A stretch of DNA of 64,000 bases, counting the filler, from Stramenopiles sp. TOSAG23-3 (lineage: Eukaryota), in assembly GCA_900128585.1 (NCBI GenBank). It is 8 parts of 8 records of this genome, joined end to end, with 100 filler letters (N's around TTAATTAATTAA, not from the genome) between each part and the next. Parts side by side here need not be neighbours in the genome. Positions count along the whole stretch, not along the records: positions 14,163 to 28,220 come from LT642594.1; 7 more parts are not named here. One strand, given 5' to 3'. Made by a program: the position numbers and the translations under genes. The first letter of the stretch is position 1. The number at the start of each line of letters is the position of its first letter. Of this stretch, positions 22,839 to 48,800 are shown piece after piece. The notes below the pieces were generated by a model, which saw nothing but the letters and a program-made list of their open reading frames with translations, was not told the origin of the DNA and made no database searches.

Positions 22839-23665
22839 TTAAACAATGGTACAGCAACCACGTCGCACACCATAAATCTTTGTGCTTTTTGGTAGTGAAC
22901 GAAGGGGGCTCGTGTCCAAACACATTTTATTATTACGAAGGTCGAGATACGTGAGATTCACGAGCTCTGCCAGCGGTGCAACGTCCACGATTTGATTTCT
23001 ATGGAGTCCGAGCCGCGTGAGATTAACGAGCGTTGCCAGTGGTGCAACGTCCACGATTTGATTACTATAGAGGTCGAGCCGCGTGAGATTAACGAGCGTT
23101 GCCAGTGGTGCCACGTCCTGGATTTACCGAGACCGAGATTCGTGAGCGGAAGCTCTGCCAGTGGTGTCACGTCCCAGATTCGATTATTATAATACAGGTT
23201 GAGCCCCGTGAGATTAACGAGCGTTGCCAGTGGTGCCACGTCCACGATTTGATTGCTTTCGAGGTCGAGCGTGGTGAGATTTACGAGCCCTGCCAATGGT
23301 GCCACTTTCACGATTTGATTTTTTCGGAGGTTGAGCGTCGTGAGATGGACGAGCGTTGCCAGTGGTGCCACGTCCACGATTTGATTATTCCAGAGGTGGA
23401 GCTCCGTGAGATTAACGAGCGTTGCCAGTTGCGTCACGTCCACGATTTGATTGTTATTGAGGCGAAGGTCCGTGAGATGGACGAGCGTTGCCAGTGGTGC
23501 GACGTCCACGATTTGATTTTTACTGAGGTCGAGCTTCTTCACCTTCAGCAACTCCTCACGGAGCTCCGCCATGGTGATGTCCAGATCGAACAAACCAGGT
23601 TTAAGTTGTTTGCATGNNNNNNNNNNNATCTTCGGAAACAGTTGTGTCTTAATCGGATACTTCAT
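22839..23665 (-). pseudogene. Internalin/SDS22-type leucine-rich-repeat gene, frameshifted, with C-terminal CaaX
   Basis: 22-aa/66-bp repeats LTxLxLxxNQIVDVAPLAxLVN. Frameshift near 23120 and an 11-N gap at 23617-23627. Ends RRGCCTIV. The frameshift could be an assembly error. Confidence 0.7.
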
Positions 23666-24152
23666 TCAATGGAAGCATCTTTTTCCTCCGCATCCTCCGT
23701 CTTCCCAGGCGCGTCTTATTTGGTAGTCTATTGTAATATTATATAGGGCCCGTTAAGTTAGACTCAATTTCGTTCATTTTCTGAATAACGGACGCTTCCC
23801 CACTATTGTGACTACATATAGGACAGTGAACCTCCGAATGTGCTTCTTCCACGTCGCACGATACTTCCGTTTGCTCTGGCTCTTCTTCGTCCATCTTAGT
23901 CATAACATCATTGGTAATCATGTCCGCGTCTGGCAATTCAAACGGCATTTTATAAAAGTAAACGTGGTGTATATAGTCGCCAGAAACTAAAATCTAATCT
24001 TCTTCCAACGTAAAAAAACCTTCTAACACGCGGTCGTTATCTATCATTCTTTCTTTTCTTTCTTAGGCAAATTCATCCCTCCGTTCCTAGCCTATTTCAA
24101 GGAACGGGAGTTTGTTCGCTTCTCTTGGTACCGCGACGGGGGACGGGCGAAC

Positions 24153-24905
24153 ATGTCCAAGTATGGAGAAGTGGGCTTTTGGGACAAACGGTATTCGACC
24201 AAGGATCCGATAACTTTGAAAATACAGAAAACGTACGACTGGTACGTAGACGCTGAGGACGCAAAGAACCTGGTGCAGAGCTACCTGGCCGGAAACCTTG
24301 GGGCAAAAATTCTTATCGTTGGCTGCGGGAATTCAAACGTGACTCGACTGCTGTACAATGCGGGGTACAAGAACATTGTATGCATAGACTTTAGCCAAGT
24401 GCTTGTGGACCTTTTGCTGGAACGGGACAGAGATCTTGAAGGCGTGCAAGTGCTAACCATGGATTCTAGAAATTTAACCATGTTTCCGGACGACACGTTC
24501 CACTGCATCCTAGACAAAGCTTGCCTAGACTCGGTTATGTCTGGCAACACGTCCGTAGACGCAGCGCACGACATGTTGGAAGAAGTGTCGCGCGTGTTAC
24601 GCGTGGATGGGCTTTACCTGTCGTTTACGTACGCAAACCAAGAGGCCAGGTTTCCCCACTTGAAGAAGCCCCAGTTTCGTTGGGTTGTCGGCCAAACAAG
24701 CATGTCTACAGGGATCGATAACGACGTGTCCTACAACGTTTTTGTTTGCACGAAAAAGAGTCATGAAGACTGGGCCAAGATGATGGAGGAGGAAGAGATG
24801 TTGAAAAAGAAAAAGGAGGACGAGGAGAACAAAGACAGCGAGCAGGAAGGGCAGTTTACATTGGAGAAAACACGGAGGAAAACGGAAGTAAAGAAGAGGG
24901 GGTGA
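24153..24905 (+). CDS. Class I SAM methyltransferase, EEF1AKMT4/METTL13-N-like
   Basis: YGEVGFWDKRY, YDWY, ILIVGCGNS and ILDKACLDS motifs. Confidence 0.9.
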   Translation: MSKYGEVGFWDKRYSTKDPITLKIQKTYDWYVDAEDAKNLVQSYLAGNLGAKILIVGCGNSNVTRLLYNAGYKNIVCIDFSQVLVDLLLERDRDLEGVQVLTMDSRNLTMFPDDTFHCILDKACLDSVMSGNTSVDAAHDMLEEVSRVLRVDGLYLSFTYANQEARFPHLKKPQFRWVVGQTSMSTGIDNDVSYNVFVCTKKSHEDWAKMMEEEEMLKKKKEDEENKDSEQEGQFTLEKTRRKTEVKKRG

Positions 24906-25093
24906 TGTCCCCGCTCGTGCGCAATTACCGAGAGGAGGGCATTGCGAGGGTGCACGCACCCATGCGCTAATGCAGGATAAATATGTAATGGATATATGTA
25001 ATTTTGAGTGTTTTTTTTATAAATGATTTTAAAACATTTTTATTTGAAAGGATATTTAATATTACATTATAGTATCAACGGACTCTACCCCTC

Positions 25094-25729
25094 TTACTTT
25101 ACATCGCGCATTGCAACGCGCAAGGCGGCCGCGTCGTCAATCGTTGCAAGTTTCAGGGCAGTATCCGTCACTTTGTACAATTTCTTTATCGCCTCAAGCT
25201 TCTCTGGGCTTTTCTCCCACACGGCCGCCGCCGCATCCGGGGCAACGGCCGACCCCTGCACTGCAGAAAGCACTTTTTCCTCGCCCTGTGCAGACGCCGC
25301 CCCTTGCCTGTGTTCAAAAATAACAGCTGCGACCCTGGTCGTCCTGGCATTCGAACCAAACGTTTTTAGGGCAAAATTGATGCTCTTCGAGGCCGACAGA
25401 TTGTATAAGCATTCGGTCGCAAGCGACTCGGTCTTGCGAGTTCCTTCCACGTGGGACACGACGGCTTTGTTTGCGGCGGCCAAGAGAGTCAAGGGCCCGG
25501 CCAGGACGTCCACGTCTACGAAGGCTACTAAACCGCCATCGATGCATGCGGTTCCTGCCAACGACTTACCACCACCACCACTACTCTCAGTCGTGTTCAA
25601 TGGCTTTAACATGTCTCTTAAAGCTTCCCCGTTGGAAACATTTGAAAACAAGTACGCCCGTAACGCGTAGTCCGGGGCTAGCTCGAACATGTGCTCTATG
25701 GCCGGAACGAACGCTACTACAGACGCCAT
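25094..25729 (-). CDS. CGI121: KEOPS/EKC complex subunit Cgi121/TPRKB
   Basis: LFSNVSN, LLAAANKAV, KTESLATECLYNLSASKSINFALKTFG, IKKLYKV and RVAMRD match the Cgi121 pattern. Confidence 0.88.
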   Translation of the reverse strand: MASVVAFVPAIEHMFELAPDYALRAYLFSNVSNGEALRDMLKPLNTTESSGGGGKSLAGTACIDGGLVAFVDVDVLAGPLTLLAAANKAVVSHVEGTRKTESLATECLYNLSASKSINFALKTFGSNARTTRVAAVIFEHRQGAASAQGEEKVLSAVQGSAVAPDAAAAVWEKSPEKLEAIKKLYKVTDTALKLATIDDAAALRVAMRDVK

Positions 25730-25951
25730 CCTTTCAAACTGTGCAATACCAACTACCTTCCGCCGTTCTCAAACTCGAACGAATGATGAAAAACAGAACG
25801 TCAAATATAATGACGAAACGAATGGAGATGGGAAGAGTCGGAAAGTGATAATGAACGAAAAAGAGAGAAAAGAGAGAGAAAGTAGAAAAACTATTTAAAT
25901 AATATTATTATTATACATTCCCCACTTCTTCTCTTTTTCTTTTTTTATTAT

Positions 25952-25983
<32 letters not shown>

Positions 25984-26463
25984 TAAAAATCTTAGACTCT
26001 ATAATAATTATTGAATTGTATTTATTGTTGTGTTGTGGTGTTGTTTTTTTTTTTTTTTCTTCTTGTTGTTGTTGTTTATGTTGTTTATGTTTGTGTGATA
26101 TTACGTTGCTGTTGTCGACGCTCCTCTGGTTGGACTGGGGGGGGGATCAAAAAATAATAATAATGATGATGTGGTGATAGGTATCGTATGTGAAGAGAAT
26201 GAAGAAGAAAAAAATGTATTTTATTATTATTATTATAGTCGGTGGTCTATATTGTATTAAAATCAAAGGAAAGGAAGAATTTGATTCGAAAAAGTTAAAT
26301 TGAAGGTTAAAAAATTTAACATATATTCTTGTAGAATGGTTAGAACGTTCAATTTTAAGTATGTACGCGTGCTTATACACAATTTGCGAAAATCATTGTA
26401 CGTGCATGGGATAGTAAACTAACTACACACTGGAAAGGGTTTTGCACGTTTCCGGGTATCGCA

Positions 26464-27069
26464 ATGGCTCGTGTAACAGCAGTTGTTCGTAGTGTAGAGG
26501 AAATGGCAAAACTGGGGGGCAGAGTTGCCAGGTACGCGATGAGTCATGCAGACTTTCAAAAAACGGTAAATGGGCAGCCTGGTTTTGTGGTATTTTTGAA
26601 CGGTATTCCAGGCGCCGGAAAAACTGTCTTTGCAAGGGGGTTCGTACGAGAATGTATGAACGACCTTCATGTCGACGTCCCGTCCCCCACGTTTTGCCTG
26701 AGCCACGAGTATTGGTGCAGAGAGGCAGCGGTGCCGGTGCATCACGTAGACCTTTACCGCCTAGAATCGCCCTCATCGGAAGTGCTGGAAACAATTGGCA
26801 TACCGACTTTGTTTAACGATGCGATGTCTCTCATTGAATGGCCCGACAGGCTGAAACATTCTGGCATCCTAATTCCCAAGAACCGCCTGGAGGTAGATAT
26901 TGCTGTCAGGGACGTCGGCGGTAGCTCCATGGCGGCGGCCGATGACTTGTTCGACCATAAAACTTTTGAAGCCCTTGAAGCGCGGGAGCGGTGCGTGACA
27001 GTGAGTGCAGATCGAGACTTGCCGGCCCCTTTGATGAATTTGGTGTCGGAGTTCGGTGCAAAATCGTAA
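26464..27069 (+). CDS. tsaE: tRNA threonylcarbamoyladenosine biosynthesis ATPase TsaE (YjeE)
   Basis: P-loop LNGIPGAGKTVFARG plus VPSPTF, HVDLYRL and LIEWPDRL signatures. Confidence 0.93.
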   Translation: MARVTAVVRSVEEMAKLGGRVARYAMSHADFQKTVNGQPGFVVFLNGIPGAGKTVFARGFVRECMNDLHVDVPSPTFCLSHEYWCREAAVPVHHVDLYRLESPSSEVLETIGIPTLFNDAMSLIEWPDRLKHSGILIPKNRLEVDIAVRDVGGSSMAAADDLFDHKTFEALEARERCVTVSADRDLPAPLMNLVSEFGAKS

Positions 27070-27342
27070 CAATGCGGGACTCTATGTTTGTACATAAGTA
27101 AATATTAATAAGAGCTTAAAACATACTATATATTTTTGTTTTTTTAATAAGAGCTAAGTTAACTATGATAGATATGTTTTTCCTTTTTATTTAACTTTTG
27201 TTAAAAAATACTTTGTTTAAGAGAGTTTAGAAACGTTTTACGATAATTTTATCTCTCTCCAGAGATTAATTATATACTTTTATATTTTTTTCCAGAGAGA
27301 ACATTCTCTGCTCCGTTTTATTTTGCGTTAGATCACGCCCGG

Positions 27343-28220
27343 TCACCTTGTCTTCAGAAATCGCCGGGCTATCTCCACGGGGGTCATCATTTTCTCGACT
27401 TCACCTTTATTCGTGTTCGTGTATATGTTGGCCATCATCGCGGCGGCCGCAAGTTTTGAATCTCGGATCTTTCTTGGAGAAGGTGACATCCCCTGTGCGC
27501 CCTTTCCAAGGCGAGACTTGCGCCTGGGGGGGCGCTTAACCTTTCGGCCGTAGACTGACGAACAATGCTGAAGATGCTCTTTGCCCCGCTGCCGGTCGAA
27601 CTTGTTCGTTCTAGCCATGTACGATTTTCCATCGCGCCAAGGGTCCAATGATGTACCAACAGTTGCGCGAACTACGGACTGTTTTCCAACCTTCTTCTTT
27701 CCCAATGGAACTTCGTCTTTAGACATTATGTTTGCGTCTATGAGTTGTTGTATTGCATTTTTGTTCACAGCGGGGTATGCTGCGGTGCTTTGAGACTGTT
27801 CCGGGGCAATCTCCGTGCTAGCGAACATGCTCCCACTGGACATAAAGGAAGCATGTGTGCTCCCATGCCAGAGACTGGCTGTGTTGCCGGGAGAGGATTG
27901 GTACAGGCTCATGGATGCCTTGTTGTTGGGCATGGGCGCAGTTGTAGGGCGCAAGCGCGTGCTATTGGGCTGGGAAGATGGATATGGCAACATGCTGTTC
28001 CCCAGGATAGTGCTCTTAATGTCATCGGTCTTTGTCTCTTTGCACGTCGCATCGTTGATCTGTCCAGGAAGAAACTTTCCCAGGCGAGGCCTTGCCTGAT
28101 TGGAAAAGGTATACAGATAGTTTCGTTGAAACGGGTTTGTCGAAGTGCGCCGAGCTCTTATGTTTTCTAATTCTTTCATGCGGGCAGCCCTTTTCTTGGC
28201 ACGCTTCGCTAGTTCAATTT
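27343..28220 (-). CDS. Hypothetical protein, C-terminal part (5' truncated)
   Basis: Frame open to the contig edge with coding-like composition. No domain recognised. Confidence 0.65.
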
Positions 28221-28320
28221 NNNNNNNNNNNNNNNNNNNNNNNNNNNNNNNNNNNNNNNNNNNNTTAATTAATTAANNNNNNNNNNNNNNNNNNNNNNNN
28301 NNNNNNNNNNNNNNNNNNNN

Positions 28321-31300
28321 CCAATACACAGCACCAAGGGTACCAAAATCGACATCAGTAATTTATTCCAAAAAGGGACCTATTCATCACTTGTGTTGGT
28401 TTGTAATTTACCAGAATTTTCTTCAGAGTTCAAATGCAGGTCTGCCGAATCGGAATCGTACGTGCTTTTCTTGAAGCCGAAGTCAAAAGAAAAGACGGGC
28501 ATTTTTTTTGCAGACATTGTTGCCGTTAATGAGAGTGGAGAAACTTTGCCGTACACTTTTAGCTTCTACTCGGAGCCCGACGCCGCGAAAGTGGAGAAGT
28601 TCCATTACTGCAACGTCCCCACAATGATGGCGAAAGTTGTTTTTCCGCGTTTGAACTTTCAAATTTTTGAAGAAACCTCAAGGGATGTCATCGTTGGTAT
28701 AGTATTGGGGTCGAAAGAACACCATGCCGAAGTAGAAGTAATAGTGGACACTGATGGTGTAAGCGTAGATGCATCACTAGAGGTTCTGCAATTGTACATA
28801 CCCAAATCTGAACCTCCGGCAAACTGCGAGCAGCATTTTTTGGAGGTGTCTGCTACAAATGTCGATGTCAACCTCAAAGCAGGGCAACCATCCCAGCACA
28901 CTCTGCACTCTAGTACACGGCTTGTTTGCCTTCCAGTTGACGTGCGAGACGTCAATGGCTCTGCCGCGTGCGGTCTAAGCGTTGGAATTTTTGTACCTAG
29001 CCATCTGGGCAGCCACCTTGACCTTGTTGGAAATTTAATGTCTCCTGATACAAAGAGAGCGAAAAAGCGAAAATCGTTAATCAACGAACGCGACGCAAGC
29101 GAGGACGAGGAGGAAGGTGTTGATAGAAAGGCGGAAGAACTAAAGAATGCGGAAAATGAGAAAAAACTCAATAGAGAGAAGGCGCAATCGCTGCTAGAAG
29201 GTTCTCGGGTGAAGCTGGATGCATCTGTAGAAATAAATTTTATTGCGTCGTACGACCCTACAACTCTCTCCACGAAGAACGCAGTAGATCTTCAACTTGC
29301 CGATGGATTGGCGCTTGAATACGAAAATATAGCCCCACCAATATTTACAATGCCGATATGCACGGTGGTGGCTGTGCAGCGCAAACGAATGCATTTTACA
29401 GAAGAAAAAAATCAAATTAAGCTCGTTGTTGCCGAGAATACCACTCAAGTAGGCGTTGCCAGTGAGAATCTAGAGCAGGACTCGTTGTCTTCGTTCCATT
29501 TGGCGCTTGGTGAAAACGATGCTGGCGTGCTGTTAGCATTGAAAGACGAGCTTCTTCAGAAGTTAGAACCCGTCCAGTCAATTGTCGAAACACAAAAGGG
29601 CAAAGGGCACAAAGACATTAGTAACGATGCCCCAGATCCTAACTGCTCTGGTAACAATGTTAATCAGCAATGTCTTCAGTTCAGTAACGGGTTTCAGATA
29701 TGCCTTAAAATGGTAAATTTGCGGTCAAAAAAAGGGGCTGGAAATGTCTCAGTAGCCCATGTCACAACCATGACAAGCATCAAATGCGACGGGCTCCGGA
29801 TGTTTAGAACTGATTCAGTAAGTAACGCTCTGGAAAGGCGAAATGTAAAAATGAACAGCAAACTGGAGTTTTCAAATATAGAAATTGAAATACCTGTAAA
29901 CGATGGAAATGTGTCCTTATATTTTGATGGCGCGGTTGATCATTTGTCCGAAACGATTTCAATTCGCTCTCAAAGTGCGCGTCAACTCACTGCCACAGAC
30001 ATGCTCTCGGTATCTTTGGCGTCTGCAGGAGTGCAACTGGAAGTGTTTGATAAGGACCGACAAGATATTGTTGAGAATTTCAGTGCCATGTTCGATATTG
30101 AGCGTGCAGATAGACAAAATAGGGATGGTGACAAGTTTAGCCGCTTGTTTACGCAAGAGTTACAATTTAGCTCCGACCTCATTGCAGCGTGTATTTGCCT
30201 GGATGACATCAATGTGTACCTGGATTGTGTAAAACGAGCAACGTTGGCAATGGAGCTAATATCGAAGGCAAATGAAAACTTAAGTCAAGCTGTTGGTGAA
30301 GTCAGCGACCCCGCGGAGCCACAATTACCAAGAGTTGAAAACGGTGCACACGGAAACAACGGCATGGAACAAAAGTCTATGTTCAAAAGCACGTACGTAA
30401 AAAAGATGCACATTCGCGGAATGGCACTGAATGTACAGAGTTGTGCGAAAACGATTTTATCGGCACGATGCGATTCTATTTTTGGCACAGGGGATTTGTA
30501 CATGAAAGGTAGACCAAAAGAAATATTTATCGATCTGCACGCGTCAGGCATACACGCAGATGTGCTTACGTCCCAAGGCAATAGAAACACGTTCTCCCCA
30601 ATCATGGAAGAGTGGGCATTTTCAATATTTGTCCAAAGATTTAGAGAAGACTACATCAAAGATGGTTCCGACTATTCAAAAGGAATGCGTGTGACTATAT
30701 CGAGCCCCGGGCCTATAAATATTAATCTGGGGCCGAGTATAGTCCGCACATTGCTCCAGGCCCGCAGTCACGTCACTAGTCTGATGGGCGAAAAAGGCGG
30801 GACGGCAAACGAAATGTTTGAAGAACAAGAAAGCGATCAGAAGATGAGTGAATCATTCTCGTTGCAGGCAAACGGTGTAGTCCGCCACTTATCCGCAAAC
30901 GACCTGGCCTTGCAGTTGGCGGCTTCTGAAGATGCGTTTGTAAAAGGTTTGAAAAACATGGGCGAAACTCACAAGCCTCCAATTTACGGGGAAGAAAGCA
31001 CCGGGGCGGAAGAACTGTCTCAGCGAGAAGCGGCCGTGCTGTCGCTAAAAGGGGGGACATTTGATAGAGTTGCGAACGGGCTGGGGTCAATTGTTAACGC
31101 GCTCCAAGAAGATGTTTCTAATGTGAGTCAAGTCAGAGGTAACTTAAGAAGCTGGATGGCAGAACAGGGAGGGCGATTTTTACCCGATCTTACTGTCTCT
31201 TCGAATAATGTCGTTGTCTTTGTCCAAAATTTTTTGGATGAGTCGGTAGATATTACTGTTGATTTAATAAGTGAAGGAGGGGACAAAAGCAAGAATCAGA

Positions 31301-34300
31301 AATACTCGCAAGTTATTTCTCCCGCTGGGTTTACTCCCGGGGATGGTTCACAAAGTTCTTGCGCGGTGGAGATAGGGCGCAATAAACACACAGAAAGCGT
31401 CGTTATTGCCGCCCATGCTAAACTCCAAAAGTGGTCTGATGGCCAGCAGATAGATTTAGCAACATACGACGAAAAAATACAAGGTGCTGATCAGAAGGGG
31501 GCATTTCGTGCAACCGTAGAACGTCTGAATGTCGACGAAAACCATGTTGAAGTGGAACATATCATAATTACTCTCTACAGTGTGTGCTGGATTGTTAACA
31601 ACACCCCCGCTACAATACAGATAAGAGAAGCTGACGAATCAGAATCGTCTGCTCTTTTGGAAATCCAGCCTTATTTGCCTGAAGACATGCTGCCAGACGA
31701 AGATGTACCTCAGTACATTAAGAGGATGGACCACTCTGCATTCACGCCGCTTACGAAACAGAAAAAGACACCAGAAACGGATAGTGGAACATCAGTGGAA
31801 AATAATTCAGGGGCGCCGGTCAAAAACAAAAGAGCAATGAAAGTGCAGATTCGAACGAAGCTGTCGAAGTCATATACTTGGTCAATGTGGTCTGAGCCCT
31901 TCTCTATCGAAACAGTTGGAACGGACGGTCAAATTGAGTTAAAAACAAATGATGATGCAAAGGACATGAAGGAACAATGGGGAATTTCTGTGAGTGCCAC
32001 AAATCGTTCCAAACTAGTGTCGATAGCGCCACGATATGTGCTTATCAATAATTCTACCCACGCATTCATGATAAGGCAGACGCGATGCAGTCAAACCGGA
32101 GAGTCTGAGATTTTTGATTGGGAAAAAAACGCATTTGAACCCAAAGGCGAGGCTCGCAGTATGCATTTTGTAAAATGGACAGGGCATTTACAGAAATCAT
32201 TGCAAGTGTGTGTTGCTAAGAAGACTTATTGGAGCGACGACCTTCACGTCGACGCGGTCAGACCCCTGGGTGCCCAGTACCGTTTATTGCCACTACCCGG
32301 TGTTGGAGACAGCCTGTGCACGTTTGGCATGCAAGTGAAACACGTAGGTTCGACTACAATCATCGTTTTTGTAGATGCGCCTGGCTCGTTTTTGTGTGTT
32401 GACCAAAATGTTGAGGGACTTACTTTAAAAATGAGACAGAAAAATATTGTTGTGGACATACTTAGCACGAAGGATCCAAATGCAGCTGCCCCGAAACCCT
32501 CGCGTTCGTACTGTGGGTGGGGAAATGCCCCACAACAAGAAGAAGAAAAGCCAAAATTGCAGGATAAAGATGAATCGAAAGATACACAGCTGCCTGTCGG
32601 GTTGTGCCCAGACGACCAAAGAGGGTGGATTATAATGCATTTTGATTACGAAGGAAAGCGTCCTCTTTACCTCGATTATGACAATGGAAGCAACAACCAC
32701 TTTGATATTGCAGATGAGAATGGAAATTTGCTCGGGACTATCAATGTTGTGAAGACCGGTATGTTTAGCATAAACGATTCATTAAATGTCCGCCTTAGCG
32801 CGGAGGGTGCGTATCGTGTCTTAGAATTCGTGAAACCCGACGATGATTCTGCGGCTGCAGCTAAATTTGGGCAAAGCGCTCAGTTATTTGGTATCAATGT
32901 AGACTTGTCCAGTGTCGGTATATCCATTCTGGAAACGTCACAAGAAAACGACATTGAAGAAATCTTGTACGTCAGTTTTTTTGGTGTTGGCTTAAAATAC
33001 GCAAAGTCTGTCTCTGGCACTGTGACTACTGTGCTGTCGTGTACGTCGGTACAAATTGACAATCAGACCCCAGGGGGAAACCGTGTAGTCTTGGCCCCTG
33101 CAATGCAGCAAGAACCGGACACAATTTGGGAGCTCGATATGGTGGGCGGCTATGCCCCGTTTTTGAAAGTAGCGTTGCACCATTTCTTGGTCCATGTTGA
33201 CATCTGGAAATATAGGAGAGCAGCGAACGATATTTTTGCTGCCCAGAATGCAATTGCTAAGCATGAAAGTAAGTCGGAAACAGAAGAAAAGGTAAATGAA
33301 ATTTTCTTTGCGCGATTGCTACACGATTTCTCCCTTTTTATCATATACGAAGATCCATATGCGTCATTAAGTGTTGCAATGAAGAAACAGTGGTTGGAAT
33401 TTCGAGAAAATGTTTTGAAGCTCCCATTGGCAACGGAGAAACAAGAGTATGACGTGAGCATGAGGCCATACTTGTCTTTCCTGACGCGAGAGATTAACAT
33501 GTACAACCAGACCAAGCAGAACTTTTTCTTGGCAGTCGAGAGAAATACTGATTCATACTCTTTCAACCATTTAGAGCTTGACTTGCCCCTCTTGGACATT
33601 GAAATCCACGAAGAGTTTATTTTTTCGCTGGCTGTGCTACTTCAAGGCATTGCCGAAGATATTAAACAATTCGGGATATCAGATGACAAGTTGGAAATGG
33701 GAATGGTAGAAAACGGTTTTGATTCCCCACCTATCGTAAAGTTTGACGACCAGTTGCTTACCTTGCATTCATGTATTGCGAAGGCTACAGACGAGAACAA
33801 GCGCATTGTGTATTTCTTTGGAAATATAGATTTCCACAAAGTGGAGACTCGATTGACGTATATTGGCGCTGTTCCAGGATCCAAGAAACGATTGTCGAAT
33901 CTTTCATCGGCGACAAGTTTTCGGGTATTCAGCTCTATGATGTCGATTGAGGATTTGATTTTAATCTTTGCGTCGCTTTCGCAAAAAGATGCATCTTATA
34001 CAAATGAGGACTTCCAAAACACTGTGGGGAAATTTTATAAGGACCAGGCATTGCGAAGGCTGTACAAAGTCGTGTTGAATATTTCGGTGTTGGATACGCC
34101 CGTTCGAGCCGTTGCAGGTATTGGTAGTGGTGTATCCCAACTGTTAAATACCCCTGGGCGCGCCCTGGGGGCATTAAAAAGGGGGGAATTTATAGCTGCT
34201 GGCAAAGCCATCTGCTTTGGTGTAGGTGGGGTGGGCCGCTCAGTTGCGGGGGGCGCTGCAAAAATGGGAAGTGGCCTCATCGGTGGGTTTGGTTTTGTTT

Positions 34301-35019
34301 TAAAAAAGATTACTGGGGTGACCGCAGTGACCCGAACGTTGTTTTCTCCTGCGACGCAGTTACTGGATTTCTCAAGTCGTAAGTTGGGCACGGCGTACGA
34401 TACTCTAGTTGAGAATGCAAGCAAGCATAAGCGAAAAAATACCCGAGCACGCCTTCCTCGCTATGGAGGGTACGGATTTGTGAAGTACTGTTATCTTGAC
34501 GCATGCGCAAACAGCATGTTGCAAGCGGCAAAATATGCCAAGGCAAAAAATAATATAAAAAAAGGAAGCACAGTGCCAGCACTGGGCATTGTTCAGGATG
34601 CTCCTTATTACATTTGCGGGGCGTTCTTGCTTGAGCAGCGGCTGCTGAAGCAGATACAAGGAGGAGACTTTGTCACCATGGAACCAATGGTAGAAACGAA
34701 TGCGCAGTCGATACTCGTACTGACATGTTGGCATATATCATGCATTGCATTTGTTCACGACCAGGCCAACAGTTCTGATTTGATGTGGGCTATACCGTTA
34801 CGCCGAATCATAGATGTGTCTTTGTCACCGATATGCGGGCCGCGTACAAATGCCAGCGACTCGATGGAGCTTGCCGTAGTGTACATGACCAACGATGGTG
34901 ACCTTGGTGAGACTCGGCAGCGACGTTTTGTGGGGCTCAATCGGAGAGGTCTGGTGTACATGCATGCACACCTAAAGAAATTTTCAAATGCGTATAGTAG
35001 ACGACTAAATGAATATTAG
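28321..35019 (+). CDS. VPS13: VPS13-family lipid transfer protein, C-terminal part (5' truncated)
   Basis: WSEPFSIETVGT and IAPRYVLINNS (VAB/SHR-BD repeats), EEILYVSF..VQIDNQ (APT1), Gly-rich ATG2_C-like helices, PH-like tail. Frame open from the contig start. Confidence 0.88.
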   Translation, partial: PIHSTKGTKIDISNLFQKGTYSSLVLVCNLPEFSSEFKCRSAESESYVLFLKPKSKEKTGIFFADIVAVNESGETLPYTFSFYSEPDAAKVEKFHYCNVPTMMAKVVFPRLNFQIFEETSRDVIVGIVLGSKEHHAEVEVIVDTDGVSVDASLEVLQLYIPKSEPPANCEQHFLEVSATNVDVNLKAGQPSQHTLHSSTRLVCLPVDVRDVNGSAACGLSVGIFVPSHLGSHLDLVGNLMSPDTKRAKKRKSLINERDASEDEEEGVDRKAEELKNAENEKKLNREKAQSLLEGSRVKLDASVEINFIASYDPTTLSTKNAVDLQLADGLALEYENIAPPIFTMPICTVVAVQRKRMHFTEEKNQIKLVVAENTTQVGVASENLEQDSLSSFHLALGENDAGVLLALKDELLQKLEPVQSIVETQKGKGHKDISNDAPDPNCSGNNVNQQCLQFSNGFQICLKMVNLRSKKGAGNVSVAHVTTMTSIKCDGLRMFRTDSVSNALERRNVKMNSKLEFSNIEIEIPVNDGNVSLYFDGAVDHLSETISIRSQSARQLTATDMLSVSLASAGVQLEVFDKDRQDIVENFSAMFDIERADRQNRDGDKFSRLFTQELQFSSDLIAACICLDDINVYLDCVKRATLAMELISKANENLSQAVGEVSDPAEPQLPRVENGAHGNNGMEQKSMFKSTYVKKMHIRGMALNVQSCAKTILSARCDSIFGTGDLYMKGRPKEIFIDLHASGIHADVLTSQGNRNTFSPIMEEWAFSIFVQRFREDYIKDGSDYSKGMRVTISSPGPININLGPSIVRTLLQARSHVTSLMGEKGGTANEMFEEQESDQKMSESFSLQANGVVRHLSANDLALQLAASEDAFVKGLKNMGETHKPPIYGEESTGAEELSQREAAVLSLKGGTFDRVANGLGSIVNALQEDVSNVSQVRGNLRSWMAEQGGRFLPDLTVSSNNVVVFVQNFLDESVDITVDLISEGGDKSKNQKYSQVISPAGFTPGDGSQSSCAVEIGRNKHTESVVIAAHAKLQKWSDGQQIDLATYDEKIQGADQKGAFRATVERLNVDENHVEVEHIIITLYSVCWIVNNTPATIQIREADESESSALLEIQPYLPEDMLPDEDVPQYIKRMDHSAFTPLTKQKKTPETDSGTSVENNSGAPVKNKRAMKVQIRTKLSKSYTWSMWSEPFSIETVGTDGQIELKTNDDAKDMKEQWGISVSATNRSKLVSIAPRYVLINNSTHAFMIRQTRCSQTGESEIFDWEKNAFEPKGEARSMHFVKWTGHLQKSLQVCVAKKTYWSDDLHVDAVRPLGAQYRLLPLPGVGDSLCTFGMQVKHVGSTTIIVFVDAPGSFLCVDQNVEGLTLKMRQKNIVVDILSTKDPNAAAPKPSRSYCGWGNAPQQEEEKPKLQDKDESKDTQLPVGLCPDDQRGWIIMHFDYEGKRPLYLDYDNGSNNHFDIADENGNLLGTINVVKTGMFSINDSLNVRLSAEGAYRVLEFVKPDDDSAAAAKFGQSAQLFGINVDLSSVGISILETSQENDIEEILYVSFFGVGLKYAKSVSGTVTTVLSCTSVQIDNQTPGGNRVVLAPAMQQEPDTIWELDMVGGYAPFLKVALHHFLVHVDIWKYRRAANDIFAAQNAIAKHESKSETEEKVNEIFFARLLHDFSLFIIYEDPYASLSVAMKKQWLEFRENVLKLPLATEKQEYDVSMRPYLSFLTREINMYNQTKQNFFLAVERNTDSYSFNHLELDLPLLDIEIHEEFIFSLAVLLQGIAEDIKQFGISDDKLEMGMVENGFDSPPIVKFDDQLLTLHSCIAKATDENKRIVYFFGNIDFHKVETRLTYIGAVPGSKKRLSNLSSATSFRVFSSMMSIEDLILIFASLSQKDASYTNEDFQNTVGKFYKDQALRRLYKVVLNISVLDTPVRAVAGIGSGVSQLLNTPGRALGALKRGEFIAAGKAICFGVGGVGRSVAGGAAKMGSGLIGGFGFVLKKITGVTAVTRTLFSPATQLLDFSSRKLGTAYDTLVENASKHKRKNTRARLPRYGGYGFVKYCYLDACANSMLQAAKYAKAKNNIKKGSTVPALGIVQDAPYYICGAFLLEQRLLKQIQGGDFVTMEPMVETNAQSILVLTCWHISCIAFVHDQANSSDLMWAIPLRRIIDVSLSPICGPRTNASDSMELAVVYMTNDGDLGETRQRRFVGLNRRGLVYMHAHLKKFSNAYSRRLNEY

Positions 35020-42892: not shown

Positions 42893-45800
42893 CTAACCAG
42901 GAAGCCCGTTCTGCACTGGCGCTAGCTCAACAGTCTTTTGCGTTTTAATTTGCTGCTGCTTCAGCGGGTTGCGTGCCCACCCGTCGATCGAGCCCATGGA
43001 CTTTGCGCGGGCTTCACGTATTGCCGTCTTTTTGCTGTTTGCAATTGCATTCTCGGCGATGTAGGGCAGGAGTGCGTCTAGTCCAAAGATTGTTGCCGGG
43101 CGAAATATTAAAGCAGATAGCACCAATTGTGCCACTAAAGAAAAGAACCATGCGTTGGTGACGGCTTGGCCCATGTACATGCCAAAAAGGATGACCCAAG
43201 CAGTACAAACGACGATGTAGAATCCCATCAGGGCATAGATTAGCCTTTCGTAATACTCAGGTTTGGGAGGCTCCAAATGATCCCTCTGGCTTTTCAGGAG
43301 CGAATCGAACACCCGCTGTTGAAACTTATTGTTCATCTCTGCAAGCCACAAATCTTCCGCTTCCTCTTTTGCCTCAATATCTGGGCACAAGGTTCGTTTG
43401 ATCTCTTTCAGCGCCTCCTTGTTATTTTGCAGCCTCTCTTCGTCGCCCAAACTACTATCTTTGGACGCTGCGACCCTCTGCTGCTCGTCTGCACAGACAC
43501 AGAAATTCTCATTGCGAACGATAAATTGCTGGCACTGCTTGGTAAAGTCATCCTCTTTCACCCCGGTGCGAACGTGTTTTCTTAAATTTCGAAGGACGCC
43601 TTTGATTGTTTGTAGTGCAAACCGGGACCCTGTCTCGGTCGAAGGCAAAGGCGCAATAACCTTGCGCAACGTGTCGGTCCACGCATCCCGGGCCGTCCTT
43701 GAGAAGGCATCCAAGAGAATTACTCTTTTTCCATCTCCGTACAAGTCAATGTTAAGAACATTATCGCCGATATTTGAAATCACCGTCCAAGCATTTAACG
43801 GTATCATCCAATCGGGCTCTTCGCCGCTGAGCTTTGCCGTCAAATTCAGACAAATTCTCGCGACCGACGGAGTCCCGTTAATCTCAACACGCAAAGGTTC
43901 GTTTAGCGGCCATGGCTTCTGCTTTTGTTCGTCGTACTGGCACTGGCCTTCGCTGGACGTTCGTATCTCTAACTTTCCAGACTTGTGTCGTTTGAACGTT
44001 TTCAAATCCAGTGTGCCGACTTTTTCAAATGTCTTCTTTCGCCGGTTCGATTCAGCAATGGACATCAACACGCTTAAAAATACGGCTGCGATTGGTACAG
44101 ACAGTCCCGCGCACAATAAAGCAATGATCAGGCGTTCGGTCAAGGGCAGGTCGCCAGAGGCCTGCGTCTCGGCCCGAACCATGCTTTGGGACGAATTGTA
44201 CGCGTTCCCTCCGCGGGTTAGTGCAATCGAGTCTTGCCGCTGATCCGGATGTCGAAGGTCGTAAATAAATGCCTCCGTTGCCATTTGTCCTAGAACTGTT
44301 GCCATCAGTAGAAGCACACGCATGGTAGGCGTGAAAAACCTCTCCTTGTGGGACACGAAGCACGGGGATATCCATTCGTGCTCTAACTTCATTTTCGTCC
44401 ACCACCGATTTTTCATTGAGGCGGAGTGCTGCGAGAAAGACTCCAGCTGTCCCTCCACCGATGATTTGTAAATGTATGATCGTCGTCTAGCAGAGGTTCG
44501 CAGTACATCCAACGACTCGGCGTCTTCTATGTCGTTGTCTCCTGATGATTTTCGAACCTTGGATCGCAACGATTTCATGCCTTCGTCTGCAGCGAAGGGC
44601 AGCAGCAGCCTTCGGATCAGTTCCGTTTCGTTGCCGTAGACATGTGCTTTCTTGGCAAGCCGAAGGAAGCGCCCCTCCTTTGCGCGCATGTGGCGGGTTT
44701 CCATAAGGCATGAAATGGACCCTAAGCCCAAGAAAATGCCCATTATGACAACAGTCAAAATATTCTCGACCACTTTCGTGCGGAACTGCGCGACGGAGTC
44801 GTACTTTACCTTGCGCTCCGCGTTGGACACTAAACGGACACTGTAGTCTGTCAAATGGTTGCAGAAGCACACGAAGCTGGCGTTTGGGCTGCTGCGGTTT
44901 TGAACGCGATGGGATGAGCACCCGCGAGTGGACCATTGCTCCTCCGTTTCGTTCCAGAAACTGCACGTGTACACCTGGCTGGAAGAAACGTTTTCTTCCC
45001 TTGGAGGTGGGAGAGTGATCACGATCGCCGGGGATATCCCTTCCAGATGCATAACTTGTTCCCCTGCACGGAGCTTCAAACCAACAACATCGGAGAGAAC
45101 ATTATCATCGCTAGCAAATGCGTAGGGGTTCCGTTTCCACCTCGTTAATTGCGTGTCAATAATGTCGTGCGCCGCTAGTCTTTCGTCGCCACTCGGTGGA
45201 AGGGTAAAACTAGCCCCGTTTGATTCAAGCGGGCGCGCCAAAAGCGTGGTCTGGTTTTCGCGCTTCGAGGACATGTCAATCACGGGAGTGGTGATGACTT
45301 TTGGAGGATCGCCTGGTTTTGCCCCAATGAGCTGCATTGTCGATATTGTATCAACGATACTGCTCATCTTCTTCGCCAATTCACTTTTTCTACGGCGCTC
45401 TTTGACCTTTTCCTCCGCAGCCGCTGTCGCGTTTACGCTTGCATTCTTAATCGCCGTGTCGCTTTTCCCGGGAGCTTCCACCGGCTTTATGCTCTCAAAG
45501 ACGTTGGAAACGGCACGCACGGTTGTCTCGGCTGCCGTGTTTGAAAGGGCAACATGTTTTGTCTCTTGGGAAGAGGTTGCGTTGCTACCCCCCGTCGCGT
45601 TCCCGGTCTGCACACGGACAGACCCCAACAAATCCAAAACGAAATCGATTGCAATTGTTTGGGCCTCGGCCGAAACTTGTTCCGGTATTTCAGTAATTGC
45701 AGCCAGACCAGACACCAGCACTTCTACTTCCGCTACCGAGCGTGTCGTATTGGCAGGCTTGGCTGAAGCCGATTTTGTCATAACTTTTAACAGCGTGACA

Positions 45801-48800
45801 CGCATTTCCTGTGCCTCCTTTATCTCTTCTTCCTTCATGGCCTCTGTACTGTTTGATGAGGAAGGGGACAGCTGATTCAGGGATTCAGCAGCAACTCGAG
45901 CTTGCTTTGCAGCTTCATCTTCGGTGGCGTTGGCGACACTTTCTTCTAAATCCAAAATATTGTCCACTACCGCGCTGGAGCTTTCGAAAAGGCAAGCCCA
46001 AGAATTGTTGGTGTCAGTGTTCCGCCCAGTCTGGCACGCCCCGCACAGTCGCTGGTCAGTTATGCTTGCAGGACGAGTAACGTAAAACCCTGGCGTGCAA
46101 TCCGTCTGTGATTTGCACGCAGACGCGCCCTTTGCATCTTGGTACATGCCTTCATGGCACAACTGGCAAGAGTATGTGTTGGTGGCATCGCTGAATTTTC
46201 CTTGCGGGCATGCCTTGCAGACCCGGTCGGAAGTGCCGTCGGTACCATTCGCATGTATGTACTTGCCTGGGATACAAACCGACCAGGAGGCGCACCTAAC
46301 ATCGTTTCCCGGGCTCCCTATTGCCGCGATGTATTCCCCTTTGCCGCAAGTTTTCCAATCTTGGCATTTACTTAGATCCTCTATATTCGGAGATGCTGTA
46401 AACTTTCCAGCAGGACAAAAATCACACACTACATCTGTAGTGCTTGTGGGCGTATTGATGACAGTTCCACCCTCGCACACCGTCCATTCAGTACATTGTT
46501 GTTCATTTGTATTTGGTGAAAATCTTCCTGTGCCGCAATTCCGACAGTCACGGTCTAATTTTTTTGTTCCGTCGGCCTGCATGTACTTTCCCGGTGGACA
46601 TAGACTCCACTCGGTGCATTGCAAAGATCGTTCTGACGCAGAAAACTGTCCAGTAGCGCAACTGGGGCACGTTTTCAGCGCGGTTTCGTGCCCAAATGTT
46701 CCCGGTAAGCAACTCTTGCAAATTGACAACATTATGCTGTCCCCGTACCTCCCTTTCTCGCAGTCTTTGCAGAGCGCTTGCCCAATCAGGTTTTGATACT
46801 TCCCTTTATTGCATACTTTGCACGTTTGCTTCAGAGCGGTTTCGTTCCCAAATGTTCCCGGTAAGCAACTCTTGCAAATTGACAACATTGTGCTGTCCCC
46901 GTACCTCCCTTTCTCGCAGTCTTTGCAGAACGCTTGCCCAATCAGGTTTTGATACTTCCCTTTATTGCATGCTTTGCACGTTTGATTCAGAGCGGGCAGG
47001 AATTTCCCCTTTGGGCAGGCAACGCAATCAATATTCGCCGTGTCGGTAATGGATACATTTGTCGGGCCTATATGCCCCGCAGCACACGAACAGTACACAC
47101 CATTTTTGTTATAGTCTGTGCATGTCCCAACGAACGGGTAAACAGAGCAGGGTGCGGGGCTCGAACTGCACGTCTTCGGCGAGATAAAATCACTGTCACT
47201 TCCCGACTTTGCTTTGTAATCGGCCCCATAAAAGTTGTCGCTGGATCCTGTAAATTTTGTGTTGACGGTCGTAAACGTAGTGTTTCCCTTTCCCTTGCCT
47301 GCATCGTAATCCCATATCTGCATGATATGGTGGCCTCTATCGCTTGCTGCCCAGTTGTTTCTGAATGTTGATTCTCGAATGGTGACCTCTGTTGCATCAG
47401 TAGCAGCGGATCCAAACCATACCAGCTGGATAGCCCCACCACCGTAGGCAAACCAACCGTCTTTTTGTTTTAGCGCACGGTTGTCCTCAAATGTGACACG
47501 GTTGAAGTCCATGATGATTTTGTCCTTTATGGAATAAATGGCTCCGCCATAATCGGCAGAGTTGGATCCAATAAAAGTGTCTTGTACATGCACCTCCATC
47601 ACCCCTCCAGTATCGCCATTTATGTCTATGGCACCGCCCCGAGCGGCATGGTTTCCAACTATTCTCGAATTGCGCATGGTAAAGTTACACATTAAGGCTT
47701 TTCCATAGGAGTTTATTGCAATGCCCCCACCCAAAACATAATAACTATTAGCAGGATGAGAAAGATTATGATGAACTGCGGAGTTTTTCTCAATTAGGGA
47801 ACCATCGAACAGCATACTCTTGCAGAAATTACAAAACACTGCCCCCCCTTGAATATACTGATATGTATGGAAAAACGTTTCCTCAGCGTTCACCTGATTT
47901 GAAGTAAATCGCCCACCAATTACTGTCAACGTCGTTTCAGCACCATTAAGTGTTATCACACCGCCACTGCCAACTGTAGAACTGGACCCGACGGCATAAT
48001 TTTCTGTCGCATTTGTATCCCACATTTTGACAGCCCCCCCGCCCGAGGCGTGTGCCACACCACCAATATCCGCTTTGTTCAAAGTAAACCAGCAAGAGAA
48101 TGTGATCAACGTCCCCCTATGCACTCTGATCCCTCCTGTATGAGTTTGGTTAAGACCTGTCAGTTTGAGCCAACGGAGAGTCAAAGTGTAGTTTGAAACC
48201 ACAAAGTGGCGTTTTTCATAGGCTGCTGTGATGGTTGGCAAATCAGAAGCGTTCCCAGCAAGCGACAAGTCCCCGCTCAAAGAGACTTTGTCATTTAGCA
48301 AGCAGTCAAAGGAACGGTTAAATGTACCATTCGTTTGCGGATCGCAGCAGTGCCACTCTATTGAATTTTTAATTTCATTCCGGCATTCGTAAAGAAAAAC
48401 CATGCCATAATAGTTTCCGTATATACCCACGACATTCCCGTCAGTCCCTGTCATACCAGGGTAGGTGTTCGGAGCGCCCCAGTAAACAACGTCCGTGCCA
48501 TCAGTTTTGATGGCAGTGAACGAATTCCTGCGGGGAATCACTGCCTTCACCTTACTTGAAAGACCTCCAGTGCCAGACCCTCCAGAATAAGGAAGGCCCC
48601 AAGATACGACACTGCCATTTGCCAGTAGTGCAGAAAATGCATTTTCGTTCGCATATAGGTCCACAACATTGCTGGTCAAACCCGGATCTTTGCCCCCATA
48701 ATATGGGCTGCCCCAGACTGTCACGCTTCCATCAGCTTTCAAGGCTGCAAATGCCCTCCTTGATGAGGTTATATATAAAACACCTGACGACAGATTTGGG

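What the first reader, a model, noticed from the sequence alone, without database searches (positions are those of the whole stretch)
25094..27069. KEOPS subunit Cgi121 head-to-head with bacterial-type TsaE: a possible hybrid t6A locus
Seen: within one contig, Cgi121 (minus) and TsaE (plus) are divergent across a 734-bp AT-rich spacer. TsaE has no in-frame upstream ATG (stop at 26356), so no obvious organellar presequence. Its P-loop reads GIPGAGKT instead of GDLGAGKT. Established: t6A is made by Sua5+KEOPS in the eukaryotic cytosol, by Qri7/OSGEPL1 in mitochondria, and by TsaC/B/D/E in bacteria, where TsaE resets TsaD. TsaE has no established role in KEOPS. Inference: a shared bidirectional promoter could co-regulate them, and TsaE might act on Kae1/KEOPS or Qri7 here. 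Chance adjacency is possible because nearly all genes in this window are divergently paired.
Basis: partly seen in the sequence, partly recalled or inferred. Interest (0 to 1): 0.72.

Follow-up and report, generated by a model that had tools for sequence, protein, structure and literature searches.

The report
Cgi121 beside an organelle-type TsaE
A marine protist carries a KEOPS subunit gene head-to-head with a bacterial-type TsaE gene, but the TsaE belongs to a large eukaryotic family that mostly looks organelle-targeted, so a hybrid tRNA-modification machine is possible but unsupported.

Summary
ORF 25094-25729(-) is a full-length Cgi121, and ORF 26464-27069(+) is a TsaE with all ATPase motifs and a confident TsaE fold. 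They diverge across a 734-bp spacer of 30.5% GC, and an in-frame stop lies at 26356.

The "hybrid locus" reading is not supported. Head-to-head pairing is the default in this contig (11 divergent, 12 convergent and 5 tandem neighbour pairs).

The TsaE is neither a contaminant nor a one-off. It sits in a single eukaryote-type clade: 14 proteins plus 138 of 142 further representatives, with 0 of 186 bacterial-like rows inside. The nearest bacteria are mostly Alphaproteobacteria. Most members (114 of 138) carry basic, acid-poor N-terminal extensions typical of organelle import.

Most likely this is a nuclear gene for an organellar t6A ATPase that happens to lie next to a cytosolic KEOPS gene.

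Two points stay open. The window's subclade (three species) starts exactly at the first strand of the fold, with no presequence. Linkage in relatives could not be tested, because the one sister contig is too short. The genome is not held, so TsaB, TsaD/Qri7 and Kae1 could not be inventoried.

The reviews I read state that TsaE has no eukaryotic homologue, so the family deserves notice.

The parts
25094..25729 (-). Cgi121 (KEOPS subunit) coding sequence, 211 aa, single exon as read. It carries a lineage-specific insertion at about residues 43-63.
   Evidence: Pfam PF08617 E 5.3e-24 with full profile coverage. PDB TPRKB E 7.8e-15. Alignment A4. RNA-library contigs cover 25090-25250 and 25185-25642.
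25730..26463 (.). Divergent intergenic spacer, 734 bp, AT-rich with low-complexity runs. Presumed to hold the promoters and 5' UTRs of both genes.
   Evidence: GC 0.305. Sequence read. No Rfam match at E <= 0.1 in 23900-28200. Divergent spacers in the window have a median of 964 bp and GC about 0.30.
26356..26358 (+). In-frame TAA upstream of the TsaE start, with no in-frame ATG between it and 26464.
   Evidence: Translation of 26230-26523.
26464..27069 (+). TsaE (YjeE-type P-loop ATPase) coding sequence, 201 aa. It has no N-terminal extension, a eukaryote-subclade insertion at about residues 149-175 and a short C-terminal helix.
   Evidence: PF02367 E 5.6e-24 and TIGR00150 71.5 bits over its cut-off. 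AlphaFold2 pLDDT 88.4, pTM 0.87. The nine best Foldseek hits are all TsaE/YjeE. RNA-library contigs cover 26584-26777 and 26862-27061.
26602..26625 (+). Walker A codons for G47-I-P-G-A-G-K-T54. The Pro at the third position marks a seven-member eukaryotic subclade.
   Evidence: None of 186 bacterial-like sequences has Pro there. I48 is replaced by M in population variants.

Best explanation
These are two ordinary t6A genes that serve different compartments and happen to be divergent neighbours. Cgi121 is the cytosolic and nuclear KEOPS subunit that binds Bud32 and the tRNA 3' end. The TsaE is a resident nuclear gene of a large, monophyletic, eukaryote-type TsaE family with alphaproteobacterial affinity. 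It is probably a leftover of the endosymbiont's TsaBDE system.

By inference from bacterial TsaE, it binds ATP at the interface with an organellar TsaD/Qri7-type transferase (with TsaB if the organism has one). It then competes with tRNA and, by hydrolysing ATP, resets the transferase for the next turnover.

The 734-bp AT-rich spacer is the standard divergent intergenic region of this genome. It may drive both genes, but nothing shows that the pairing is kept by selection.

Shown: family membership, intact motifs, fold, clade membership and genome architecture. Inferred: organellar location, partner and ATPase-switch role.
For: Eukaryotic context: EB1, VPS13, SGF29, Cse1/importin and mitochondrial-carrier genes lie on the same contig. 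TsaE GC3 is 0.545, within the window's range of 0.455-0.80. So it is a resident gene, not contamination.

Intact motifs: Walker A, S74-P-T-F, H94-x-D-x-Y-R and E125-W126 are all present. Their roles are taken from passages of PMC6009658.

Fold: pLDDT 88.4, and the nine best PDB matches are TsaE/YjeE.

Clade:
- The 14 eukaryote-type sequences form one side of a branch, with SH-aLRT 97 in a 200-row tree.
- In a 55-row mixture-model tree the support is UFBoot 94 / SH-aLRT 87, and 96% of 200 bootstrap trees agree.
- In a 342-row FastTree the clade holds 14 + 138 of 142 new representatives and 0 of 186 bacterial-like rows, with support 98.

Named members are oomycetes and a dictyochophyte. Atlas clusters are Eukaryota 100% and 95%.

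Nearest bacteria: 67 of the 80 best genome loci are Alphaproteobacteria.

Organelle-type extensions:
- 11 of the 14 have 50-91 residues before the P-loop, against 32-50 in 44 of 48 bacterial-like rows.
- 114 of 138 representatives have more than 46 residues there (median 77). These extensions are net positive in 108 of 114 and free of acidic residues in 73 of 114.

Layout: neighbour pairs are 10 divergent, 11 convergent and 7 tandem as scripted. Once the antisense shadow ORF is replaced by Cgi121 the counts are 11, 12 and 5.
Against: The window's TsaE and its two closest relatives (P0002, P0128; 45-49% identity) have no N-terminal extension. M1 is invariant across the three, and residues 2-8 form the first strand of the fold at pLDDT 92. 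So the usual sign of organelle import is missing in exactly this lineage.

TsaB and TsaD/Qri7 could not be looked for, because no genome is held. Bacterial TsaE binds only the asymmetric TsaB-TsaD pair and not homodimers (passages of PMC6009658). A Qri7-only organelle would therefore leave TsaE without its known docking site.

My own rough estimate assumes about 10,000 genes and at most 8 other t6A genes; neither figure comes from a call. On those figures the chance that a given gene's divergent partner belongs to the same small pathway is about 1 in 1000, so pure chance is not comfortable. Selection of this window by a reader looking for such pairs offsets that.

The bacterial sample in the trees was drawn with a motif, GKT[VCA]FA[RK], that favours Alphaproteobacteria.
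Confidence: 0.55

Rival explanations
1. The pairing is kept by selection as a small t6A co-regulation unit. One bidirectional promoter region tunes a cytosolic KEOPS subunit and the organellar TsaE together, without the two proteins touching.
For: The two genes share one pathway and one 734-bp spacer. My rough estimate of same-pathway chance adjacency is about 1 in 1000; its assumptions do not come from any call. Both genes appear in RNA libraries, and both in run X15.
Against: Nearly every gene here has a divergent partner. No relative could be checked: the only sister contig, L001, has just 118 bp upstream of the longest reading of its TsaE. Contigs cannot measure co-expression.
Confidence: 0.2
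2. A true hybrid. In this subclade TsaE has lost its presequence, stays in the cytosol and acts on Kae1/KEOPS, for example as a second ATPase switch beside Bud32. The link to Cgi121 reflects that new role.
For: Three species show no N-terminal extension and share a conserved start, and residues 2-8 are part of the fold. The subclade has derived features: Pro in the P-loop, seen in 0 of 186 bacterial-like rows, an insertion at 149-175 and a C-terminal DUF1289 fusion in the sister species. The gene is adjacent to Cgi121.
Against: There is no direct evidence. Four other members of the same seven-member subclade (P0006, P0033, P0074, P0177) do carry long basic extensions. On TsaD, TsaE sits at the end opposite to where Bud32 sits on Kae1, and it needs TsaB contacts (passages of PMC6009658). 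Non-cleaved internal import signals are common (general knowledge, not tested here).
Confidence: 0.08
3. TsaE here has drifted to a function outside t6A or is on its way to loss, and the adjacency is meaningless.
For: The presequence is lost. P-loop position 48 is polymorphic, I or M. The sister species has gained an unrelated domain.
Against: All nucleotide-binding and switch motifs are invariant across the 14-member alignment. The frame is intact in several population variants. The model is confident. RNA-library contigs cover the gene.
Confidence: 0.05
4. Artefact: a bacterial fragment or an assembly chimera placed a bacterial tsaE next to a eukaryotic gene.
For: The window is a scaffold with runs of N.
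Against: There is no N between 25094 and 27069. TsaE composition matches its neighbours. The protein groups with eukaryotic TsaE, not with bacteria. Fourteen DNA or unclassified runs hold half or more of the sampled words of 24000-28300. The same protein sequence is on record from several sources, including a eukaryote protein set.
Confidence: 0.02

Closest known systems
Bacterial TsaE/YjeE (ATPase subunit of TsaB-TsaD-TsaE; solved as HI0065 1HTW, B. subtilis YdiB 5NP9, T. maritima TsaBDE 6S84/6N9A)
   Same: Same fold (Foldseek E 2.5e-12 to 1.2e-8, TM to target 0.74-0.81). Same Walker A, SPTF, HxDxYR and EW motifs. Scores over the TIGR00150 cut-off.
   Different: Encoded in a eukaryotic nuclear contig. 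Pro in the P-loop (G-x-P-GAGKT). An insertion of about 25 residues before the last strand (149-175). Only 21-27% identity to solved TsaE. Partner proteins are unknown.
Eukaryote-type TsaE proteins of oomycetes, dictyochophytes, diatoms and green algae (database entries named automatically; no paper on them was found)
   Same: Same clade. Shared GKT[VC]FARG, and shared VPSPTF/HxDLYRL/EWPDRL blocks.
   Different: Most of them carry basic N-terminal extensions of 12 to over 100 residues. The window's protein and its two closest relatives do not.
Mitochondrial minimal t6A system (Sua5/YRDC + Qri7/OSGEPL1 homodimer) of yeast and human
   Same: It would be the expected organellar context of a TsaD-family transferase derived from the endosymbiont.
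   Different: That system works without TsaB or TsaE (passages of PMC9654439 and PMC11648230). A TsaE implies a fuller bacterial-type system or a new docking mode.
KEOPS Cgi121/TPRKB
   Same: Full-length Pfam match and 33-35% identity to animal TPRKB.
   Different: A Gly/Ser-rich insertion of about 21 residues at 43-63, unique to this species in alignment A4. No known link to TsaE.

Membership tests
TsaE (PF02367 / TIGR00150) | Profile score over the curated cut-offs | tested here: met
   PF02367 85 bits against 26.6. TIGR00150 71.5 bits against 60.1. The gammaproteobacterial equivalog PRK10646 is not reached, at 60.8 against 246.
TsaE (PF02367 / TIGR00150) | Walker A GxxGxGK[ST] plus the SPT[FY], HxDxYR and EW switch and gamma-phosphate motifs | tested here: met
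   G47-T54, S74-F77, H94-R99 and E125-W126. The roles of these residues are read from passages of PMC6009658.
TsaE (PF02367 / TIGR00150) | TsaE/YjeE fold | tested here: met
   AlphaFold2 pLDDT 88.4, pTM 0.87. The nine matches at E <= 0.001 are all TsaE/YjeE.
TsaE (PF02367 / TIGR00150) | Works with TsaB and TsaD encoded in the same genome; ATPase stimulated by TsaBD | not testable with these tools
   No whole genome is held. No fused TsaE-TsaB form appears among the 120 longer hits listed.
Cgi121 (PF08617) | Full-length profile match and likeness to solved Cgi121/TPRKB | tested here: met
   85.5 bits against 25, profile 1-159 of 159. TPRKB E 7.8e-15 and Arabidopsis At4g34412 E 2.3e-10. The archaeal NF011465 model scores 39.3 against 40, just under.
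Cgi121 (PF08617) | Part of KEOPS with Bud32, Kae1 and Pcc1 in the same genome | not tested
   None of these lies in the window (Pfam scan of 23 large ORFs), and the genome is not held.
Organelle-imported protein with cleavable presequence | N-terminal extension before the mature domain, basic and poor in acidic residues | tested here: not met
   The ORF begins at strand 1 of the fold, with an upstream in-frame stop and a conserved M1 in three species. It is met in 11 of 14 clade members and 114 of 138 representatives. No targeting predictor was available.
Conserved, co-regulated divergent gene pair | Linkage kept in relatives and correlated expression | tested here: inconclusive
   Of 371 pattern matches in metagenome contigs, 3 encode a relative. 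Only L001 is from the sister species, and it ends 118 bp upstream of the longest TsaE reading. RNA data are contigs only.

The most novel reading that the evidence does not exclude
In this protist lineage the endosymbiont-derived TsaE has lost its import signal and been re-deployed in the cytosol as an extra ATPase switch for Kae1/KEOPS. It is transcribed from the same divergent promoter region as Cgi121. That would be a natural hybrid of the bacterial and the archaeal/eukaryotic t6A machines.
Probability: 0.08. Interest if true: 0.85.

Novelty: new member of a known kind. Interest (0 to 1): 0.4.

Why it matters
The t6A papers I read say that TsaE and TsaB have no homologues in Eukarya (PMC4615747, passages). 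They also say that mitochondria make t6A with Sua5/YRDC and Qri7/OSGEPL1 alone (PMC9654439 and PMC11648230, passages).

The searches here show a large, single-origin, eukaryote-type TsaE family with organelle-type leaders in many protists and algae. If these proteins are active, the Qri7-only system of yeast and human is a reduced state, not the eukaryotic rule. Many organelles may then still run a bacterial-type switch.

That bears on how the three t6A machines evolved. It also bears on the argument that TsaE is a safe antibacterial target because eukaryotes lack it.

The window's own lineage is the odd case in the family: it has no leader, a Pro in the P-loop and Cgi121 as neighbour. That makes it the place to test whether a TsaE can work outside an organelle.

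Tried and rejected
Whole-genome inventory of TsaB, TsaD/Qri7, Kae1, Bud32, Pcc1 and Sua5: not possible, because no genome is held.

Linkage in relatives:
Its 636 bp downstream hold no ORF over 69 aa.
- I tried comparing contig lengths from the cluster tables to infer co-occurrence, and dropped it. The approach fails even for the window's own species, probably because assemblies break in the low-complexity spacer.

RNA 5' ends and splicing: only assembled contigs were available. None covers 25643-26583 and no joint was reported, so the 5' end of TsaE and any upstream exon remain open.

Complex prediction of Cgi121 with TsaE: no verdict (score 0.00 against a mark of 0.34; the alignments were not used). 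This is not evidence either way.

Fused forms: the 120 longer hits listed are all TsaE fused to a phosphotransferase (PF01636) or nucleotidyl-transferase domain. The named ones are mostly Paracoccus and other Alphaproteobacteria. None is a eukaryote-type or TsaB fusion.

DUF1289 elsewhere in the window: no significant tblastn hit; the best E-value is 0.037.

Hidden RNA genes in 23900-28200: none in Rfam at E <= 0.1.

Earlier notes of this scan: nothing found by place, sequence or words.

Taxon of the organism: not resolved. The TsaE Atlas hits point to diatom and green-algal clusters, and the EB1 hits to plant clusters. These are weak leads only.

Literature: searches listed no paper that describes a eukaryotic TsaE. 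I read listings and passages only. PMC7203096 mentions TsaB beyond the 300,000 characters held. Supplements were not opened.
Full report
**What is there**

The window is a compact, intron-poor eukaryotic contig. Its large ORFs carry EB1, VPS13, SGF29, Cse1/importin-beta, mitochondrial-carrier, ankyrin/EF-hand and LRR domains. Coding GC is about 0.51, and spacers are 0.25-0.46.

No whole genome is held for it. The same DNA occurs in marine and seawater metagenomes of several studies and in metatranscriptomes.

**The two genes**

ORF 25094-25729(-) is a full-length Cgi121:
- PF08617 gives 85.5 bits and covers profile 1-159 of 159.
- Human TPRKB is the best solved relative, E 7.8e-15.
- It has a Gly/Ser-rich insertion of its own.

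ORF 26464-27069(+) is a TsaE:
- PF02367 gives 85 bits, and TIGR00150 gives 71.5 bits, over its cut-off of 60.1.
- HI0065/YjeE is the best solved relative, E 1.1e-12.
- The AlphaFold2 model has pLDDT 88.4 and pTM 0.87. Its only Foldseek matches at E <= 0.001 are nine TsaE/YjeE chains.
- Walker A (G47-T54), S74-PTF, H94-x-D-x-YR and E125-W126 are all present. Passages of PMC6009658 describe these residues as binding Mg-ATP and the gamma-phosphate at the TsaE-TsaD interface.

The spacer between the genes is 734 bp with GC 0.305. No run of N lies between the two genes.

**Is the layout special?**

No. A script that took the longest non-overlapping ORFs counted 10 divergent, 11 convergent and 7 tandem neighbour pairs. 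It picked the 215-aa antisense shadow ORF instead of Cgi121. With that corrected the count is 11, 12 and 5.

Divergent spacers are long (median 964 bp, GC about 0.30) and convergent ones short (median 322 bp). Every gene here therefore tends to have one head-to-head partner, and the shared spacer alone says nothing.

What remains is that the partner belongs to the same pathway. I assumed about 10,000 genes and at most eight other t6A genes; neither figure comes from a call. On that basis, such a partner would arise by chance about once in a thousand for a pre-chosen gene. Because the window was picked out for this very pairing, that figure overstates the surprise.

**What kind of TsaE is it?**

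It is not a stray bacterial gene. Its GC3 of 0.545 lies inside the window's range of 0.455-0.80.

The closest relatives are two unnamed environmental lineages at 44-46% identity (P0002, and P0003/P0128). After them come proteins named by their sources as oomycete (Achlya, Saprolegnia, Aphanomyces) and dictyochophyte (Octactis) TsaE. The ESM Atlas lists two TsaE clusters that are 100% and 95% eukaryotic, with diatoms and green algae as the commonest labels.

Three trees agree that the eukaryote-type sequences form one clade:
- In a 200-row tree, 14 such sequences form one clade with SH-aLRT 97.
- In a 55-row tree under a site-mixture model they are one side of a branch, with UFBoot 94 / SH-aLRT 87 and 96% of 200 bootstrap trees. 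The bootstrap had not fully settled.
- A profile of the 14 was searched against 1.84 billion representatives and found 234 proteins at E <= 1e-30. In a 342-row FastTree, 138 of the 142 new top representatives fall inside the clade of the 14. None of 186 bacterial-like rows does, and support is 98.

The nearest bacteria are mostly alphaproteobacterial: 67 of the best 80 genome loci by NCBI class. The longer fused forms are also alphaproteobacterial.

One caveat applies.

**Targeting**

Bacterial-like rows have 32-50 residues before the P-loop glycine in 44 of 48 cases. Eleven of the 14 eukaryote-type proteins have 50-91.

Among the top 150 representatives, 138 start with M and have the motif. 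Of these, 114 have more than 46 residues before the P-loop, with a median of 77. The first 30 or fewer residues of these extensions are net positive in 108 of 114 and free of Asp/Glu in 73 of 114. By contrast, 17% of the rest of the protein is acidic.

Some extensions look like mitochondrial presequences. By eye, others look like the signal-plus-transit leaders of complex plastids. No predictor was available, so this is a reading of composition only.

The family as a whole therefore looks organellar. That fits descent from an endosymbiont's TsaBDE.

**The odd lineage**

The window's protein and its two closest relatives form a clade with support 99/90, and they lack any extension. Several points bear on this:
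- The three share an invariant M1 at the same column, at 46-49% identity.
- The Pfam profile starts at residue 10.
- Residues 2-8 are modelled as the first strand at pLDDT 92.

An upstream exon common to all three would make the conserved ATG a coincidence, so I think the start is real.

In the sister contig L001 a longer reading from an upstream ATG exists. It runs through a GT-rich low-complexity tract, and part of the gene calls start at the second ATG.

The wider seven-member subclade (99/91) has further marks:
- It shares Pro at the third P-loop position, seen in 0 of 186 bacterial-like sequences.
- It shares an insertion before the last strand. In the model this is low confidence at 151-160, followed by a helix at 165-173.

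Its other four members do carry long leaders. Position 48 (I in the window) is M in other variants of the same species.

The sister species' TsaE carries a C-terminal DUF1289 domain, E 8.1e-14. The window has none.

**Expression**

Contigs of three metatranscriptome runs lie on Cgi121 (25090-25250 in X15; 25185-25642 in X18) and on TsaE (26585-26737 in X15; 26584-26777 and 26862-27061 in X17). Most are at 99% identity or better.

These are assembled contigs from RNA libraries. The tool warns that DNA can be present and that contigs show neither ends nor levels. No joint was reported.

**How it most likely works**

Cgi121 is the KEOPS subunit. TsaE is, by inference from bacterial work, an ATP-driven switch. 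This rests on passages of PMC9654439 and PMC6009658. The switch docks on the transferase, excludes tRNA, and on hydrolysis releases and resets it for further turnovers.

In this organism the likely client is an organellar TsaD/Qri7-type enzyme. Bacterial TsaE needs the asymmetric TsaB-TsaD pair and does not bind homodimers. So either a TsaB exists here too or the docking mode has changed. That is the key unknown.

The adjacency to Cgi121 is best taken as chance or, less likely, as co-regulation of two t6A genes. A cytosolic TsaE acting on KEOPS is not excluded, because of the missing leader, but nothing positive supports it.

**Comparison with what is in print**

- A 2015 review states that TsaE and TsaB have no homologues in Eukarya or Archaea (PMC4615747, passages).
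- A 2009 paper found none in yeast or worm (PMC2760799, passages).
- A 2022 review says TsaB has no close orthologues in eukaryotes and that Qri7 works on its own (PMC9654439, passages).
- A 2024 paper says mitochondrial t6A needs only Sua5/YRDC and Qri7/OSGEPL1 (PMC11648230, passages).

Seven searches listed no paper on eukaryotic TsaE. I saw listings and passages only and opened no supplements. Database names for oomycete and Octactis proteins show that automatic annotation already recognises them.

**Verdict**

The hybrid interpretation is unsupported, though not excluded. The gene is a new member of a known family. Its eukaryotic branch is large and little discussed, and this lineage has an unexplained loss of the leader. 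Interest is moderate.

Noticed in passing
window 1-64000: Gene orientation alternates almost perfectly. Divergent pairs have long AT-rich spacers (median 964 bp, GC about 0.30), and convergent pairs have short ones (median 322 bp). This points to genome-wide use of shared divergent promoter regions.
   Followed up: partly
window 24040 (upstream of the methyltransferase gene 24153-24905): RNA contigs of two runs from different studies (X15, X18) stop matching the window at the same base. Both continue with the same 30 letters, which occur nowhere in the window with up to 3 mismatches. There is no AG acceptor at the break. This could be a strain variant, sequence hidden in the nearby N run, or an unusual 5' leader.
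   Followed up: partly
L001:119-1018 (sister-species TsaE; proteins P0003/P0128): The closest relative's TsaE carries a C-terminal DUF1289 domain (four-Cys motif), E 8.1e-14. This domain is absent from the window's TsaE and from the window as a whole.
   Followed up: partly
window 42893-49822 (-): A 2309-aa ORF combines RCC1-like repeats, TNFR/ephrin-receptor-like Cys-rich modules and a GPS (GPCR proteolysis site) motif, an adhesion-receptor-like architecture in a protist.
   Followed up: no
window 23617-23627, 28221-28264, 28277-28320: Runs of N mark scaffold gaps. One interrupts the LRR gene, and two lie just upstream of the VPS13-like ORF (28624-35019), whose N-terminal part is probably missing or split.
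   Followed up: no
window 25023-25670 (+): A 215-aa ATG-initiated ORF lies antisense to Cgi121 and is longer than Cgi121 itself. It is a shadow ORF of a GC-rich gene and misled the automatic gene count.
   Followed up: yes
proteins P0178-P0297: Many Alphaproteobacteria (named ones mostly Paracoccus) encode TsaE fused to an APH-type phosphotransferase domain (PF01636, some annotated N-acetylmuramate 1-kinase). A few are fused to nucleotidyl-transferase domains instead.
   Followed up: no
window 26361-26414: If the TsaE 5' UTR reaches this far, it holds a short out-of-frame upstream ORF (ATG at 26361, stop at 26412-26414). I read this by eye.
   Followed up: no
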